Shown here: one piece after another, positions 17,681 to 25,681 of the stretch
Position numbering within the stretch: the stretch's first letter is position 1
Layout of the letters: each line of letters begins with the position of its first letter
IMG/VR virus record: IMGVR_UViG_2529292735_000025
Reading direction: 5' to 3' (one strand)
Length of the DNA: 26,132 nucleotides
DNA from: a virus
Taxonomy: Duplodnaviria; Heunggongvirae; Uroviricota; Caudoviricetes
The notes under the pieces: generated by a model
What the model was told of the DNA's origin: nothing
Seen by the model: only the letters and a program-made list of their open reading frames with translations
Database searches by the model: none
Program-made: the position numbers and the translations under genes

Positions 17681-18110
17681 TGCCGTCACGGTGCTGAAAA
17701 CCAGTCCCGAGATGCTGCGGATATTCGTGGATAACGGGAGTATTGCCTCCACACTGGCGACGTCGCTGTCATTCGAAAAGCGTTACACGCTCAACGTGAT
17801 TGTGACCGACTTTACCGGTGATTTTGACCTGCTCATCGTGCCGGTGCTGGCGTGGCTGCGGGAAAATCAGCCAGACATCATGACCACCGACGCAGGCCAG
17901 AAAAAGGGCTTCACGTTTTATGCAGACATCAACAATGACAGCAGCTTTGATATCAGCATCAGTCTGATGCTGACCGAGCGCACGCTGGTCAGTGAGGTGG
18001 ACGGCGCACTGCATGTGAAGAATATCCCGGAACCTCCGCCGCCGGAGCCGGTCACCCGCCCGGTGGAGCTTTATATCAATGGTGAACTGGTGAGCAAGTG
18101 GGATGAATGA
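17643..18110 (+). CDS. R: Tail completion protein R (155 aa)
   Basis: Length and order match P2 R. Confidence 0.8.
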   Translation: MLKPDSLRRALTDAVTVLKTSPEMLRIFVDNGSIASTLATSLSFEKRYTLNVIVTDFTGDFDLLIVPVLAWLRENQPDIMTTDAGQKKGFTFYADINNDSSFDISISLMLTERTLVSEVDGALHVKNIPEPPPPEPVTRPVELYINGELVSKWDE

Positions 18111-18555
18111 GTTTAAGCGTTTTGAAGACCGGCTGACCGGACTGATTGAGTCGCTGTCACCGTCAGGGCGTCGGCGACTGAGTGCCGAACTGGCAAAACG
18201 TCTGCGACAGAGTCAGCAGCGTCGGGTGATGGCACAGAAAGCCCCGGACGGCACACCCTACGCGCCACGCCAGCAGCAGAGCGCCAGAAAAAAGACTGGT
18301 CGTGTTAAGCGAAAAATGTTTGCGAAACTTATTACCAGTCGTTTTTTGCATATCCGCGCCAGCCCGGAGCAGGCATCAATGGAATTTTACGGCGGGAAGT
18401 CGCCGAAAATCGCCAGTGTGCATCAGTTCGGTCTGTCGGAAGAAAACCGGAAAGACGGTAAGAAAATTGATTATCCGGCGCGTCCTCTGCTCGGCTTTAC
18501 CGGTGAGGATGTGCAGATGATTGAAGAGATTATCCTGGCTCACCTTGAGCGTTAG
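18103..18555 (+). CDS. S: Tail completion protein S (150 aa)
   Basis: Length and order match P2 S. Confidence 0.8.
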   Translation: MNEFKRFEDRLTGLIESLSPSGRRRLSAELAKRLRQSQQRRVMAQKAPDGTPYAPRQQQSARKKTGRVKRKMFAKLITSRFLHIRASPEQASMEFYGGKSPKIASVHQFGLSEENRKDGKKIDYPARPLLGFTGEDVQMIEEIILAHLER

Positions 18556-18585
18556 TTTTATCCAGACAGAGGCTGATGCGCAATT

Positions 18586-18620
18586 AAACATTGAGCGGCC
18601 ATGCTGGTCGCTCAATGTTT
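18586..18620. terminator. Perfect 12-bp inverted repeat AAACATTGAGCG / CGCTCAATGTTT between convergent S and the accessory gene; candidate bidirectional terminator
   Basis: Arms at 18586-18597 and 18609-18620 with an 11-nt loop, lying between two convergent stop codons. Confidence 0.5.
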
Positions 18621-18626
18621 AGAGGT

Positions 18627-19385
18627 TTATGAGTGATTTTTATTTGATGCTTTGTATTCTAAAACCTTCTTATTGGCGTAAAAGAATTTTGTATATGACA
18701 GGAATATAACCAGACCTGAAGTGAAATAGACGAGGGATAGTATTAATAATGCTTTTTTGTGACTGTTATTATCTTTAATCTCCTGGCTTAACCATTCGGA
18801 GTCCTCCTCGTTTAGCTGTAAGAGCTTATTGCAGGCGATTTCAGGAAGTGTGTCTTTTATAAATACGTTTTGCAGTCTCTTGCAATCGGCAAGGCTATAA
18901 GTTTTATTAAATTCAACTGCTTTATTTTTGAAGGATAAAAGAACTTTGTCACTATAAACATAGTACATCATATTTTTATATGGTATGCCTATGGCATCTC
19001 TTACTATAGCGGATTGTTTGTTGTGTATATAACATGCGAAGAGAATATAAATAATACTGGCCAGAATTACAATTATTGTTTTAATTATGTGTGGTGGTTT
19101 TGTTATGTCACCCCAGATGCGAGTAAGGAAAAAATACGATGTTTTTAGTTTTCCATCAATCAGTCCCTGCTGTATCATTCTCACATTTTCAATGCCTGAT
19201 ACATTGATTCCGTTAATTATTTTAAATAGTTGAATGTCGCGCCACTCGCGGTCAAGTCTTTTTAATTTTTTGTCTGAATATCCAAAATTGAAATAATGTG
19301 CAATAAGCCTCATAAGGTTACTTTTACCAAAGCTAAAAAATGCTAATACTGCAAAGCTACAAAGGAAAAAACGATTAGCCCCCAC
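18627..19385 (-). CDS. AT-rich accessory (moron) gene encoding a predicted membrane protein of unknown function
   Basis: 252-aa ORF (GTG start as called by the track), opposite in orientation to the flanking tail genes and much lower in GC. Two strongly hydrophobic helices (IIKTIIVILASIIYILFACYI; ALLILSLVYFTSGLVIFLSY). The likely native start is ATG 19411 with an AAGGAG Shine-Dalgarno, in another frame (see findings). Confidence 0.7.
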   Translation of the reverse strand: MGANRFFLCSFAVLAFFSFGKSNLMRLIAHYFNFGYSDKKLKRLDREWRDIQLFKIINGINVSGIENVRMIQQGLIDGKLKTSYFFLTRIWGDITKPPHIIKTIIVILASIIYILFACYIHNKQSAIVRDAIGIPYKNMMYYVYSDKVLLSFKNKAVEFNKTYSLADCKRLQNVFIKDTLPEIACNKLLQLNEEDSEWLSQEIKDNNSHKKALLILSLVYFTSGLVIFLSYTKFFYANKKVLEYKASNKNHS

Positions 19386-19494
19386 ACATTAGTCACATTA
19401 TAGCTGACCATTACGCTCTCCTTGAATGTTGTCTGGTAGTTCTACAAATGAATCCAGATAGCATAACTTTTATATATTGTGCAATCTCACATGC

Positions 19495-20130
19495 ATGAAC
19501 ACTCTCGCAAATATTCAGGAACTCGCGCGCGCACTGCGCAACATGATTCGCACCGGCCTTGTCGTCGAAACCGACCTTAACGCCGGTCGCTGCCGTGTGC
19601 AGACCGGCGGCATGTGCACCGACTGGCTTCAGTGGCTGACCTGTCGTGCCGGGCGTTCGCGCACATGGTGGGCACCTTCCGTGGGAGAGCAGGTGCTGAT
19701 TCTGGCCGTGGGCGGTGAACTTGACACGGCGTTTGTTCTGCCGGGGATTTATTCCGGCGATAACCCCGCGCCGTCTGCGTCGGCGGATGCCCTGCATATC
19801 CGTTTCCCTGACGGGGCGGTGATTGAGTATGAACCCGAAACCAGTGCACTCACGGTAAGCGGAATTAAAACGGCCAGCGTGACGGCTTCTGATTCTGTTA
19901 CTGCCACGGTGCCGGTGGTCATGGTGAAAGCGTCAACCCGCATCACCCTGGACACACCGGAGGTGGTCTGCACCAACAGGCTGATTACCGGCACGCTGGA
20001 AGTGCAGAAGGGCGGGACGATGCGCGGCAACATTGAACACACCGGCGGTGAACTCTCATCAAACGGTAAGGTACTGCATACCCATAAACACCCCGGCGAC
20101 AGCGGCGGCACAACCGGGAGTCCTCTATGA
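19495..20130 (+). CDS. V: Baseplate spike/assembly protein V (211 aa)
   Basis: Length and order match P2 V; start at ATG 19495 (MNTLANIQ). Confidence 0.85.
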   Translation: MNTLANIQELARALRNMIRTGLVVETDLNAGRCRVQTGGMCTDWLQWLTCRAGRSRTWWAPSVGEQVLILAVGGELDTAFVLPGIYSGDNPAPSASADALHIRFPDGAVIEYEPETSALTVSGIKTASVTASDSVTATVPVVMVKASTRITLDTPEVVCTNRLITGTLEVQKGGTMRGNIEHTGGELSSNGKVLHTHKHPGDSGGTTGSPL

Positions 20131-24173: not shown

Positions 24174-24282
24174 ATGCAGCATTTAAAAAATATTACGGCG
24201 GGTAATCCAAAAACGGTTGAACAATATCAATTGACAAAGAACTTTGATGTTGTCTGGTTTTTTCAGAAGATGGTAAGAACTG
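24174..24282 (+). pseudogene. G: Tail fibre assembly gene G, disrupted (N-terminal fragment; continues at 25619-25681 after IS2)
   Basis: [28 protein letters not shown] is the typical G N-terminus. The reading frame shifts inside a T6 run (24258-24263), IS2 is inserted at 24283, and the remaining G sequence (SEDGKNWYEE...TIKIAYDKDN) is cut again by an IS66-type end at 25682. Confidence 0.7.
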
Positions 24283-24373
24283 TAGACTGGCCCCCTGAAT
24301 CTCCAGACAACCAATATCACTTAAATAAGTGATAGTCTTAATACTAGTTTTTAGACTAGTCATTGGAGAGCAG

Positions 24374-24739
24374 ATGATTGATGTCTTAGGACCGGAGAAA
24401 CGCAGACGGCGTACTACACAGGAAAGATCGCTATTGTTCAGCAGAGTTTTGAACCGGGAATGACGGTCTCCCTTGTTGCCCGGCAACACGGTGTGGCAGC
24501 CAGCCAGTTATTCTCTGGCGCAAGCAATACCAGGAGGGAAGTCTTACTGCTGTGGCCGCAGGAGAGCAGGTCGTTCCTGCCTCTGAACTTGCTGCTGCCA
24601 TGAAGCAGATTAAAGAACTCCAGCGCCTGCTACGGACAAAAAAACGATGGAAAATGAACTCCTTAAAGAAGCCGTTGAATACGGGCGTGCAAAAAAGTGG
24701 ATAGCGCACGCGCCCTTATTGCCCGGGGATGGGGAGTAA
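24374..24739 (+). pseudogene. insC: IS2 orfA (insC), frame-disrupted in at least three places
   Basis: Segments of the recognisable InsC protein ([17 protein letters not shown] / [29 protein letters not shown] / [31 protein letters not shown] / [31 protein letters not shown]) are found in three different frames; net frame change is zero. Confidence 0.7.
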
Positions 24740-25602
24740 GCTTAGTCAGCCGTTGTCTCCGGGTGTCGCGTGCGCAGTTGCACGTAATTCTCAGACGAAC
24801 CGATGACTGGAAAGATGGTCGCCGCAGCCGTCACTCAGATGATACGGATGTGCTTCTCCGTATACACCATGTTATCGGAGAGCTGCCCACGTATGGTTAT
24901 CGTCGGGTATGGGCGCTGCTTCGCAGACAGGCCGAACTTGATGGTATGCCTGCGATCAATGCCAAACGTGTTTACCGGATCATGCGCCAGAATGCGCTGT
25001 TGCTTGAGCGAAAAACCGCTGTACCGCCATCGAAACGGGCACATACTGGCAAAGTGGCCGTGAAAGAAAGCAATCAACGATGGTGCTCTGACGGGTTCGA
25101 GTTCCGCTGTGATAACGGAGAAAAACTGCGAGTCACGTTCGCGCTGGACTGCTGTGACCGTGAGGCACTGCACTGGGCAGTCACTACGGGCGGCTTCGAC
25201 AGTGAAACAGTACAGGACGTAATGCTGGGAGCGGTGGAACGCCGCTTCGGCAACGAGCTTCCGGCGTCTCCAGTAGAGTGGCTGACGGATAATGGTTCAT
25301 GCTACCGGGCTAATGAAACACGGCAGTTTGCCCGGATGTTGGGGCTTGAACCGAAGAACACGGCGGTGCGGAGTCCGGAGAGTAACGGCATAGCAGAGAG
25401 CTTCGTGAAAACGATAAAGCGTGACTACATCAGTATCATGCCTAAACCAGACGGGTTAACGGCAGCAAAGAACCTTGCAGAGGCGTTCGAGCATTATAAC
25501 GAATGGCATCCGCATAGTGCACTGGGTTATCGCTCGCCACGGGAATATCTGCGGCAGCAGGCCAGTAATGGGTTAAGTGATAACAGGTGTCTGGAAATAT
25601 AG
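24697..25602 (+). CDS. insD: IS2 transposase orfB (InsD, DDE catalytic domain), 301 aa
   Basis: Full-length 301-aa ORF closely resembling E. coli IS2 InsD as recalled; normally expressed as an InsCD fusion by -1 frameshifting. Confidence 0.85.
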
Positions 25603-25681
25603 GGGCAAATCCAAACTGGTACGAAGAACAAAAGTATTTTGCTGATGACACGATAAAAATAGCGTACGACAAAGATAATAT

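What the first reader, a model, noticed from the sequence alone, without database searches (positions are those of the whole stretch)
18627..19411. AT-rich reverse-oriented membrane-protein moron at the P2 orf30 site between S and V
Seen in sequence: a 250-280-aa protein gene with very low GC is inserted antisense between tail genes S and V, with its own AAGGAG ribosome-binding site and a shared bidirectional terminator. The product has hydrophobic helices and no recognisable enzymatic motif. Established knowledge: this slot (orf30 in P2) is a known position for horizontally acquired lysogenic-conversion genes in P2-like phages. Inference: candidate single-gene superinfection-exclusion or abortive-infection membrane effector.
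Basis: partly seen in the sequence, partly recalled or inferred. Interest (0 to 1): 0.6.

Follow-up and report, generated by a model that had tools for sequence, protein, structure and literature searches.

The report
Phage P2 orf30 membrane-protein gene
The AT-rich backwards gene between tail genes S and V is phage P2's long-known, non-essential orf30. It encodes a three-helix inner-membrane protein of unknown function, and in this window it has a one-base frameshift that is probably a sequencing error.

Summary
The feature is real but already known. Window 18500-19520 is 98.7% identical to bacteriophage P2, where this gene is annotated as orf30 (261 aa, "nonessential"), and 99.9% identical to an E. 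coli APEC O2-211 prophage. An A7 run is A6 here (19366-19371), so the ATG at 19411 reads 22 codons and the long ORF (18627-19385) is in another frame. None of the 234 E. coli complete genomes that match this stretch has A6. All four indels between the window and APEC O2-211 are one-base homopolymer deletions, so this is probably an assembly error.

Orf30 matches no Pfam, PADLOC or solved-structure entry. It belongs to a small family (44 clusters at 50% identity) that touches Pfam DUF6216. Relatives at about 20% identity in Serratia, Sodalis, Yersinia and other Enterobacterales sit in the same antisense S-V slot. They are always about 35% GC and stay intact in decayed prophage remnants. The predicted topology is three membrane helices, N-terminus out and C-terminus in, with a conserved cytoplasmic loop and a periplasmic loop carrying a conserved cysteine pair. 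A prophage-expressed exclusion role at the envelope is the best guess, but it is untested.

The parts
18103..18555 (+). gpS, the tail completion / virion morphogenesis gene. It is the upstream flank of the slot and the last gene of the late O operon.
   Evidence: ORF. It is 99-100% identical to P2 and APEC gpS and is annotated.
18584..18622 (.). Perfect 18-bp inverted repeat between the convergent stop codons of S and orf30. It is a putative bidirectional rho-independent terminator.
   Evidence: Folds (z = -4.85 and -3.4). It corresponds to P2 9397-9433, annotated 'putative rho-independent terminator for O operon'. The U-tracts are weak on both strands, and the consensus scan did not call it.
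18627..19385 (-). Long open frame of orf30 as it stands in the window: 252 codons plus the stop. Codons 8-252 (from FFLC onward) equal residues 17-261 of intact Orf30.
   Evidence: and the alignment to the P2 and APEC sequences. PHROG phrog_2407 matches the intact protein at E = 1e-148.
19343..19411 (-). Native 5' end of orf30. It holds the ATG at 19411 and 14 native codons, then eight more out-of-frame codons before a stop, 22 in all.
   Evidence: Translation. Alignment with P2 and APEC O2-211.
19366..19371 (+). A6 homopolymer (T6 on the coding strand). It is the site of the one-base deletion relative to the A7 seen in every other copy examined.
   Evidence: None of the 234 matching E. coli complete genomes has the A6 form. 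All four indels in 24.3 kb against APEC O2-211 are homopolymer deletions.
19418..19423 (-). AAGGAG ribosome-binding site, 6 nt upstream of the orf30 ATG.
   Evidence: Read directly from the sequence.
19426..19453 (+). Activator (Ogr) binding site of the late V promoter. It lies in the 83-nt gap between the divergent orf30 and V starts. Any orf30 promoter must overlap this region or the start of V.
   Evidence: Mapped from the P2 annotation at 10239-10266. The consensus scan called no sigma-70-like site on the minus strand upstream of 19411.
19495..20130 (+). gpV, the baseplate spike gene. It is the downstream flank of the slot and the first gene of the late V operon.
   Evidence: Annotated. 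It is 96.7-100% identical to P2 and APEC gpV.

Best explanation
Identity. This is bacteriophage P2 gene orf30, carried here by a P2-type prophage of an avian-type E. coli. It is a self-contained accessory cassette between the late O and V operons. It is transcribed against them, has its own ribosome-binding site, and shares a terminator hairpin with gene S.

Protein. The intact product (261 aa) is an inner-membrane protein with three transmembrane helices. The short acidic N-terminus faces the periplasm. An ~80-residue basic, helical loop carrying the family's best-conserved motif (D-x-Q-L-F/Y-R/K-x3-G-I/V-N-V-x4-D-A) faces the cytoplasm. An ~85-residue beta-plus-helix loop with a conserved cysteine pair, probably a disulphide, faces the periplasm. 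The lysine-rich tail is cytoplasmic.

Function (inferred, not shown). The most likely role is a prophage-expressed protein that benefits the lysogen at the cell envelope. It would act as a superinfection-exclusion-type block on incoming phage DNA or ejection proteins at the inner membrane. The periplasmic loop and the helices would supply specificity, and the conserved cytoplasmic loop would supply a common structural or partner-binding role.

The frameshift. The broken frame in this window is most likely a homopolymer sequencing error, so the real gene is probably intact.

Confidence. The 0.4 given here refers to the exclusion mechanism. The identification as P2 orf30 is near certain.
For: Identity:
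- 98.7% nucleotide identity to P2, where the gene is annotated orf30, and 99.9% to APEC O2-211.
- The proteins are collinear.
- phrog_2407 matches at E = 1e-148.

It is a real, constrained gene:
- Seven alleles are all intact at 786 nt.
- dN/dS is about 0.45 overall, 0.25-0.4 in the two loops, and about 1.2 in the N-terminus plus first helix.

Topology:
- Three hydropathy peaks.
- Net charge is +5.1 for loop 1, -0.8 for loop 2 and +2.0 for the tail, with no K or R in the N-terminus.
- Cysteine columns are present in 25/28 and 28/28 members.
- The AF2 model (pLDDT 78) gives the same helices and a four-strand sheet in loop 2.

Accessory, lysogen-side role:
- Presence/absence polymorphism: 460 of 1583 E. 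coli genomes with this S-V region carry it, and most sampled others have an empty 66-nt gap.
- It is antisense to the late genes in every intact locus examined.
- It stays intact in decayed prophage remnants in E. coli B, Serratia rubidaea and Enterobacter.
- Relatives at about 20% identity keep the slot while gpV and gpJ stay 64-86% identical, which indicates fast evolution.

Frameshift as artefact.
Against: - There is no functional evidence of any kind. Orf30 hits no PADLOC model, and no model is hit consistently across the family.
- It shows no homology to P22 SieA.
- No promoter was detected by the consensus scan, so expression in the lysogen is assumed rather than shown.
- From my own memory of the classical P2 literature, not checked here: the exclusion phenotypes of P2 lysogens map to old, tin and fun, and P2 vir mutants plate on P2 lysogens. 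If so, Orf30 does not exclude P2 itself, and no leftover exclusion phenotype is known.
- About two thirds of E. coli P2-type prophages lack the gene.
Confidence: 0.4

Rival explanations
1. Orf30 is an abortive-infection membrane effector. The protein sits silent in the inner membrane. On infection it oligomerises or opens and depolarises the cell, killing it before the invader matures.
For: It is a small multi-pass membrane protein encoded by a prophage moron. The other two P2 moron regions are rich in abortive systems (PMC9122126). One Serratia relative gave a weak PADLOC hit to an RT-associated SLATT effector, E = 0.0025.
Against: The SLATT hit did not recur in any of the 28 family members scanned, and no Pfam SLATT family was hit. 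There is no sensor partner, because the slot normally holds this gene alone. A conserved periplasmic disulphide-type loop fits surface recognition better than a cytoplasmic trigger.
Confidence: 0.15
2. Orf30 is a lysogenic-conversion factor unrelated to phages. It would change envelope physiology, stress tolerance or host interaction of the lysogen, as neaT does at another P2-like moron site.
For: Intact copies persist in prophage remnants that can no longer make phage. Another AT-rich antisense moron in a P2-like prophage, neaT, affects fitness in an animal host (PMC3573123). Many of the closest copies are in avian pathogenic E. coli.
Against: The family is almost confined to P2-like elements and to one slot. 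Its fast divergence (about 20% identity between genera) with near-neutral change in the helices looks more like a conflict interface than a housekeeping envelope role. No domain suggests transport or enzymatic activity.
Confidence: 0.2
3. Orf30 is a phage-cycle accessory. It would modulate lysis timing, DNA exit or entry, or interaction with the P4 satellite during P2's own infection.
For: The position is fixed between late operons, next to the lysis and tail genes, across genera. Three helices with the N-terminus out and C-terminus in is also the class I holin topology (my own knowledge). One Leclercia homologue lies beside P4-like satellite remnants, with Psu at E = 6e-75.
Against: It is transcribed against the late operons. 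P2's record calls it nonessential. It is absent from about two thirds of E. coli P2-type prophages and from viable phages such as Wphi. At 261 aa with two 80-residue loops it is far larger than holins. It is kept in remnants that have lost the lysis genes.
Confidence: 0.1
4. The copy in this window is a genuine pseudogene. The A7-to-A6 change is a real, recent inactivating mutation or slipped-strand switching, not a sequencing error.
For: The window as given has the frameshift. orf30 can be lost naturally: it is split by IS2 in strain GPEC1054 and is absent from most relatives.
Against: None of the 234 matching E. coli complete genomes has A6, so there is no sign of phase variation. The window differs from APEC O2-211 over 24.3 kb by only 2 substitutions and 4 one-base deletions. 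All four are in A/T homopolymers. One is inside a tail-fibre-assembly gene and one inside the 652-aa ATP-binding gene. That is the signature of homopolymer miscalls.
Confidence: 0.15

Closest known systems
Bacteriophage P2 Orf30 (AAD03281.1; PHROG phrog_2407)
   Same: It is the same gene. Nucleotide identity is 98.7% and the protein is about 98% identical and collinear outside the frameshift. Position, orientation, ribosome-binding site and terminator hairpin are the same.
   Different: The window copy has a one-base homopolymer deletion after codon 14, probably an artefact, plus a few substitutions. It is identical in protein to the APEC O2-211 allele once the frame is restored.
Pfam DUF6216 (PF19723), an uncharacterised family of about 270 residues
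   Same: Length and end-to-end collinearity match. The Sodalis family member P0031 passes the Pfam gathering score (28.9 against 27.3 bits, residues 10-255 on profile positions 10-265 of 270). It sits in the same V-S slot. Nine of 28 family members give weak full-length hits.
   Different: P2 Orf30 itself gives no hit at E <= 1, so the link is transitive and remote. DUF6216 has no known function, so the link explains nothing mechanistically.
P22 SieA (inner-membrane superinfection-exclusion protein; PMC10883804)
   Same: This is a functional analogy only. SieA is a prophage-expressed multi-pass inner-membrane protein. Its small gene is transcribed against the adjacent late structural gene (gene 16), with its own promoter.
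   Different: There is no sequence relationship (hhalign probability 0.3%). SieA is 164 aa and lacks the two large loops. Exclusion by Orf30 has never been shown.
HK97 gp15 (a moron inside the tail-gene cluster; the record labels it 'moron product')
   Same: This is an analogy of layout. It is a moron embedded among tail genes with its own terminator. From my own knowledge, it encodes an inner-membrane protein that blocks DNA entry of HK97-like phages.
   Different: It is 62 aa, lies in the same orientation as the tail genes, and is unrelated in size. Homology was not tested.
Other P2 lysogenic-conversion genes (old, tin, fun/Z) and the P2/P4 defence hotspots (PMC9122126)
   Same: They are AT-rich non-essential cargo at fixed variable positions of P2-like genomes. 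The S-V site is the third recognised moron region (PMC6823313, PMC3091744).
   Different: Those sites turn over among many unrelated systems. The S-V site is mostly either empty or filled by this one family. Rare unrelated cargo does occur. No phenotype is assigned to Orf30.

Membership tests
P2 Orf30 (phrog_2407) | Full-length sequence homology to P2 Orf30 | tested here: met
   98.7% nucleotide identity to AF063097 9312-10333. phrog_2407 matches at E = 1e-148 over 1-261 for the intact allele.
P2 Orf30 (phrog_2407) | Located between S and V, transcribed against them | tested here: met
P2 Orf30 (phrog_2407) | Uninterrupted 261-codon reading frame from the ATG behind the AAGGAG | tested here: not met
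   A6 instead of A7 at 19366-19371 shifts the frame after codon 14. This is probably an assembly artefact.
Moron (self-contained accessory cassette in a phage genome) | Present in some close relatives and absent in others, with conserved flanks | tested here: met
   460 of 1583 E. coli genomes carry it. Most sampled others, and phages Wphi, pro483, P22H1 and 569R9, have an empty 66-nt gap.
Moron (self-contained accessory cassette in a phage genome) | Base composition distinct from the surrounding phage genes | tested here: met
   GC is 0.31-0.35 against 0.55-0.61. The same holds in all relatives, at 0.30-0.38.
Moron (self-contained accessory cassette in a phage genome) | Own terminator | tested here: met
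   An 18-bp hairpin lies 4 nt past the stop codon and is annotated as a terminator in P2. Function is not shown.
Moron (self-contained accessory cassette in a phage genome) | Own promoter active in the lysogen | tested here: inconclusive
   The consensus scan found no minus-strand site upstream of 19411. By eye there are only weak TATATA/TATAAA-type hexamers overlapping the V promoter region. No expression data were available.
Pfam DUF6216 (PF19723) | Score at or above the Pfam gathering threshold (27.3 bits) | tested here: inconclusive
   P2 Orf30 gives no hit. Family member P0031 scores 28.9 bits end to end, P0038 scores 24.3, and seven others score 12-17 bits. No profile-profile test against the Pfam seed was possible.
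SLATT membrane effectors (RT-associated, PADLOC PDLC03819) | Significant match to a SLATT model | tested here: not met
   There was a single weak hit in one Serratia relative, E = 0.0025. None of the 28 members hit in the family-wide PADLOC scan, and there were no Pfam SLATT hits.
Any catalogued anti-phage defence system (PADLOC-DB v2) | Match to a defence-protein model | tested here: not met
   No hits for the window protein. There was no consistent hit across 28 members.
P22 SieA-type superinfection exclusion proteins | Sequence homology to SieA | tested here: not met
   hhalign of the family profile against P22 SieA gave probability 0.3%.
P22 SieA-type superinfection exclusion proteins | Blocks DNA entry of superinfecting phage when expressed from the prophage | not testable with these tools
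   This needs plating, adsorption and DNA-entry assays.
Class I holins | Small (about 70-110 aa) three-helix protein with short loops, encoded in the lysis cassette and co-transcribed with the endolysin | tested here: not met
   The helix count and orientation match. However, the protein is 261 aa with two ~80-residue loops, the gene is antisense to the late operons, and it lies outside the lysis cassette. The window's own holin-family gene lies near 15904-16185 by mapping from the APEC O2-211 annotation.

The most novel reading that the evidence does not exclude
Orf30 and its DUF6216-like relatives are a dedicated, fast-evolving inner-membrane exclusion module of P2-like phages. It would be a fourth P2 lysogenic-conversion function, held for a long time at one fixed antisense slot between S and V across Enterobacterales. 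It would be kept AT-rich by selection, for example for H-NS-type silencing or regulation, rather than by recent transfer. Its periplasmic disulphide-bonded loop would recognise the ejection machinery of rival phages.
Probability: 0.3. Interest if true: 0.55.

Novelty: already known. Interest (0 to 1): 0.25.

Why it matters
P2 is a model phage. Orf30 is one of its few genes still without a function, and the gene is intact in E. coli B strain B-StaR and in roughly 8% of complete E. coli genomes (460 of 5426).

This work adds a testable frame:
- a defined family and predicted topology;
- a conserved cytoplasmic motif;
- a periplasmic cysteine pair;
- positional conservation across genera;
- retention in dead prophages.

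If the protein proves to be an exclusion or defence factor, it would extend the list of defence-bearing positions in P2-like prophages to the S-V slot. It would also give DUF6216 a function. For the scan itself, the finding is ordinary: an already annotated gene, with a probable sequencing artefact in this copy.

Tried and rejected
- **Family and defence libraries.** Pfam, NCBIfam and PADLOC scans of the window protein gave nothing usable. The NCBIfam 'tick cell line' hit (E = 0.018, 15 bits against a cut-off of 120) covers only the third transmembrane helix and is noise.
- **SLATT lead.** One Serratia relative hit it. It was rejected after the family-wide scan.
- **Other cargo at the S-V slot.** I tested whether other E. 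coli cargo are hidden homologues: a 357-aa antisense protein in MS1494 and a 246-aa sense protein with a CxxC...H motif in PEC165. They are not, and they have no Pfam or PADLOC hits.
- **P22 SieA homology.** Rejected.
- **Phase variation at the A-run.** Rejected, since none of the 234 matching genomes has A6.
- **Other searches.** No homologue on PLSDB plasmids. No Rfam family in the window.
- **Literature.** Searches found only statements that Orf30 is of unknown function and that the site is variable. The Christie and Calendar P2 review was not held.
- **Tool failures.** The search for related loci failed on the two most diverse alignments for lack of a conserved stretch. Two single-protein scans of viral contigs found nothing.

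Full report
**1. What is at the coordinates**

The window carries a P2-type prophage. Between gpS (18103-18555, +) and gpV (19495-20130, +) lies a minus-strand gene. Its GC content is 0.31-0.35, against 0.55-0.61 on either side.

The stretch 18500-19520 is 98.7% identical to bacteriophage P2 (AF063097 9312-10333). There the gene is annotated orf30, 'nonessential', 786 nt, 261 aa. The stretch is 99.9% identical to a prophage of E. coli APEC O2-211.

- The AAGGAG is at 19418-19423, 6 nt before the ATG at 19411.
- An 18-bp perfect hairpin at 18584-18622 lies between the two convergent stop codons. It coincides with P2's annotated O-operon terminator.
- No Rfam family matches anywhere in the window.

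**2. The frame is broken here, probably by a sequencing error**

From the ATG at 19411 the frame closes after 22 codons. The long ORF (18627-19385, 252 codons) is in another frame and starts at a GTG with no Shine-Dalgarno-like sequence upstream by eye.

Alignment with P2, APEC O2-211 and GPEC1054 shows one missing base in an A7 run, which is A6 at 19366-19371. A BLAST of 80 nt around the run matched 234 E. coli complete genomes, and none was an exact match.

Over 24.3 kb the window differs from the APEC O2-211 prophage by two substitutions and four one-base deletions. All four are in A/T homopolymers (window 8444, 9228, 19365, 24257). One lies inside a tail-fibre-assembly gene and one inside a 652-aa ATP-binding gene. 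That pattern is typical of homopolymer miscalls. I put the artefact reading at about 0.85. The rest of the analysis uses the intact 261-aa protein.

**3. It is a real, constrained gene**

Seven alleles from P2-type phages are all exactly 786 nt and intact. Pairwise dN/dS values:

| Gene or region | dN/dS |
|---|---|
| orf30, overall | about 0.45 |
| gpS | about 0.05 |
| gpV | about 0.15 |
| orf30, the two large loops | 0.25-0.4 |
| orf30, N-terminus plus first helix | about 1.2 |
| orf30, third helix plus tail | about 0.9 |

So orf30 is under purifying selection, but it evolves much faster than its neighbours.

**4. The family**

- A word-indexed search found only five clusters at 90% identity.
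- An exhaustive HMMER search of 1.84 billion representatives, using a profile of those five, found 44 clusters at 50% identity. About half of them (23) are full-length, at 249-271 aa.
- P2 Orf30 hits no Pfam family.
- Nine of 28 aligned relatives give weak, end-to-end hits to DUF6216 (PF19723). One of them, Sodalis P0031, passes the gathering score at 28.9 against 27.3 bits.
- The family is therefore a remote branch of, or neighbour to, an uncharacterised Pfam family.

**5. Predicted protein anatomy**

- There are three hydrophobic helices, at about residues 10-28, 109-131 and 219-241.
- Family-wide charge counts give a net of -0.8 and no K or R for the N-terminus, +5.1 for loop 1 (29-108), -0.8 for loop 2 (132-218) and +2.0 for the tail.
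- By the positive-inside rule this gives N-terminus out and C-terminus in, with loop 1 cytoplasmic and loop 2 periplasmic.
- Loop 1 is the best-conserved part, with a mean pairwise identity of 0.33 against 0.14-0.24 elsewhere. It carries the motif D59-x-Q-L-F/Y-R/K-x3-G68-I/V-N-V-x4-D76-A and G87.
- Loop 2 is predicted as four beta strands plus helices. It holds two conserved cysteines, C177 in 25/28 members and C194 in 28/28, which fits a periplasmic disulphide.
- The better AF2 model has pLDDT 78 and pTM 0.56.

**6. Genomic context of relatives: the most informative result**

*Same slot.* Relatives at only 18-25% identity to P2 Orf30 sit in the same place and orientation, between gpV and gpS and antisense. 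They are found in P2-like prophages of:
- Serratia nevei, S. ureilytica and S. quinivorans;
- Sodalis;
- Yersinia frederiksenii and an unnamed Enterobacteriaceae isolate;
- 11 of 12 IMG/VR viral contigs of one subgroup; the twelfth ends before S.

In these loci gpV and gpJ remain 64-86% identical to the window's.

*Remnants.* Decayed P2 remnants in E. coli B, S. rubidaea and Enterobacter still hold a full-length, uninterrupted orf30-type ORF beside fragments of S, R or V.

*Exceptions.*
- Two environmental P2-like contigs carry the gene upstream of R. In L025 the S-V slot holds a 441-aa P-loop protein.
- A Leclercia copy lies beside remnants of a P4-like satellite: Psu, a Delta-like ORF, and alpha and integrase fragments.
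- An Enterobacter copy lies at a contig end next to an outer-membrane beta-barrel gene.

*Composition.* Every copy is 30-38% GC, whatever the flank GC (0.45-0.60). Low GC is thus a stable property of the family. That weakens the simple reading 'AT-rich, therefore recently acquired'. The alternatives are selection for AT-richness or continual replacement from a shared AT-rich pool. I cannot separate them.

*Other collections.* No homologue was found on PLSDB plasmids. Among cultured phages only P2-type phages have the gene.

**7. What else occupies the slot in E. coli**

I queried complete genomes with S + orf30 + V:
- 1583 genomes match, and 460 (29%) carry orf30.
- Most of the sampled rest have a span of 1155 nt, meaning S, a 66-nt gap and V. 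This is also the case in phages Wphi, pro483, P22H1 and 569R9.
- Rare alternatives are a 357-aa antisense protein with C-terminal hydrophobic segments (MS1494) and a 246-aa sense-strand protein with a CxxC...H motif (PEC165). The latter is the same length (741 bp) and position as the R18C ORF16 described in PMC6823313; the two were not compared.
- Neither alternative is related to Orf30, and neither hits Pfam or PADLOC.
- In GPEC1054, orf30 is split by IS2.

**8. Function**

Nothing in the accessible literature assigns a phenotype. Orf30 is listed as 'unknown', and the site is one of three variable moron regions (PMC3091744, PMC6823313). The defence-hotspot studies concern the old/tin and Z/fun sites (PMC9122126; bioRxiv 10.1101/2024.10.15.618418).

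Orf30 hits no PADLOC model, and no model is hit consistently across the family. A single weak SLATT hit in one Serratia relative did not generalise. P22 SieA is unrelated.

Several observations point to a protein made in the lysogen that acts at the envelope in a conflict:
- the antisense, self-contained layout;
- the presence/absence polymorphism;
- retention in dead prophages;
- fast evolution with near-neutral helices;
- a periplasm-facing disulphide-type domain.

My estimates for the alternatives are:

| Reading | Probability |
|---|---|
| Superinfection exclusion at the inner membrane | about 0.4 |
| Envelope or host-fitness conversion factor | about 0.2 |
| Abortive-infection membrane effector | about 0.15 |
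| Accessory role in P2's own cycle or P2-P4 interplay | about 0.1 |

Two points against exclusion come from my memory of the classical literature and were not checked here. P2 vir mutants plate on P2 lysogens. The known exclusion phenotypes of P2 lysogens map to old, tin and fun.

**9. Verdict**

The feature is already known as P2 orf30.

The new points from this check are:
- the probable artefactual frameshift;
- the family definition and the DUF6216 link;
- the predicted topology;
- positional conservation across Enterobacterales;
- the uniformly low GC.

Interest is modest.

Noticed in passing
window 8444, 9228, 19365 and 24257: Against the near-identical APEC O2-211 prophage, the window has four one-base deletions, all in A/T homopolymers, and only two substitutions (14377, 14417) in 24.3 kb. 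Three of the four fall in coding sequence: a 652-aa ATP-binding protein, orf30 and a tail fibre assembly protein. The assembly behind this window probably has systematic homopolymer errors, so other apparent frameshifts in it should be distrusted.
   Followed up: yes
window about 5895-8945: This is the P2 old/tin hotspot, between replication gene A and portal gene Q. The matching APEC O2-211 prophage annotates a DNA cytosine methyltransferase and a convergent 652-aa 'ATP-binding protein' there. Close relatives carry a BbrUII/HgiDII-family restriction enzyme instead. It is probably a defence cargo.
   Followed up: no
L010 (E. coli GPEC1054) 825-2946: orf30 is interrupted by an IS2 element in a prophage whose S-orf30-V region (2,028 nt) is otherwise identical to the window's apart from the A-run. 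The A-run there is A7.
   Followed up: yes
L041 (E. coli B strain B-StaR) 4249-6020: The defective P2-like prophage of E. coli B has lost everything from the portal gene to the middle of S but keeps an intact 786-nt orf30. An 'ABC-three component system' with an AAA ATPase occupies its old/tin hotspot.
   Followed up: partly
L012 (E. coli PEC165) 301-1511: Where the S-V slot holds the 246-aa sense-strand protein with a CxxC...H motif, gpS is only 54.7% identical to the window's. gpR and gpV are 99% identical. So S appears to be exchanged together with the cargo.
   Followed up: no
L022 4965-5899: In one IMG/VR P2-like contig the slot holds two extra genes upstream of the orf30-type gene, in the same orientation. 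One is a 180-aa protein with an HExxH motif (HEFVH). The other is a 133-aa protein with a lipoprotein-like signal (LTGC). They may be a toxin/immunity-like pair.
   Followed up: no
L025 2431-3756: In a more distant P2-like contig the S-V slot holds a 441-aa protein with a Walker-A-like GKS motif. The orf30-type gene lies upstream of gpR instead.
   Followed up: no
L030 (Leclercia adecarboxylata) 385-3750: An intact orf30-type gene lies next to remnants of a P4-like satellite: Psu (E = 6e-75), an Ogr/Delta-like zinc-finger ORF, a primase C-terminal fragment and an integrase fragment. There are no P2 late genes within 3 kb.
   Followed up: partly
all orf30-type loci (L003-L005, L013-L031, L038-L040): The gene is 30-38% GC in every lineage, although the flanks range from 45 to 60% GC and the proteins have diverged to about 20% identity. 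Low GC looks like a maintained trait of the family rather than a trace of recent import.
   Followed up: partly
window 24283-26132: Similarity to the APEC O2-211 prophage ends at 24282, inside the tail-fibre-assembly gene. The rest of the window, towards the Z/fun hotspot, differs from that relative.
   Followed up: no
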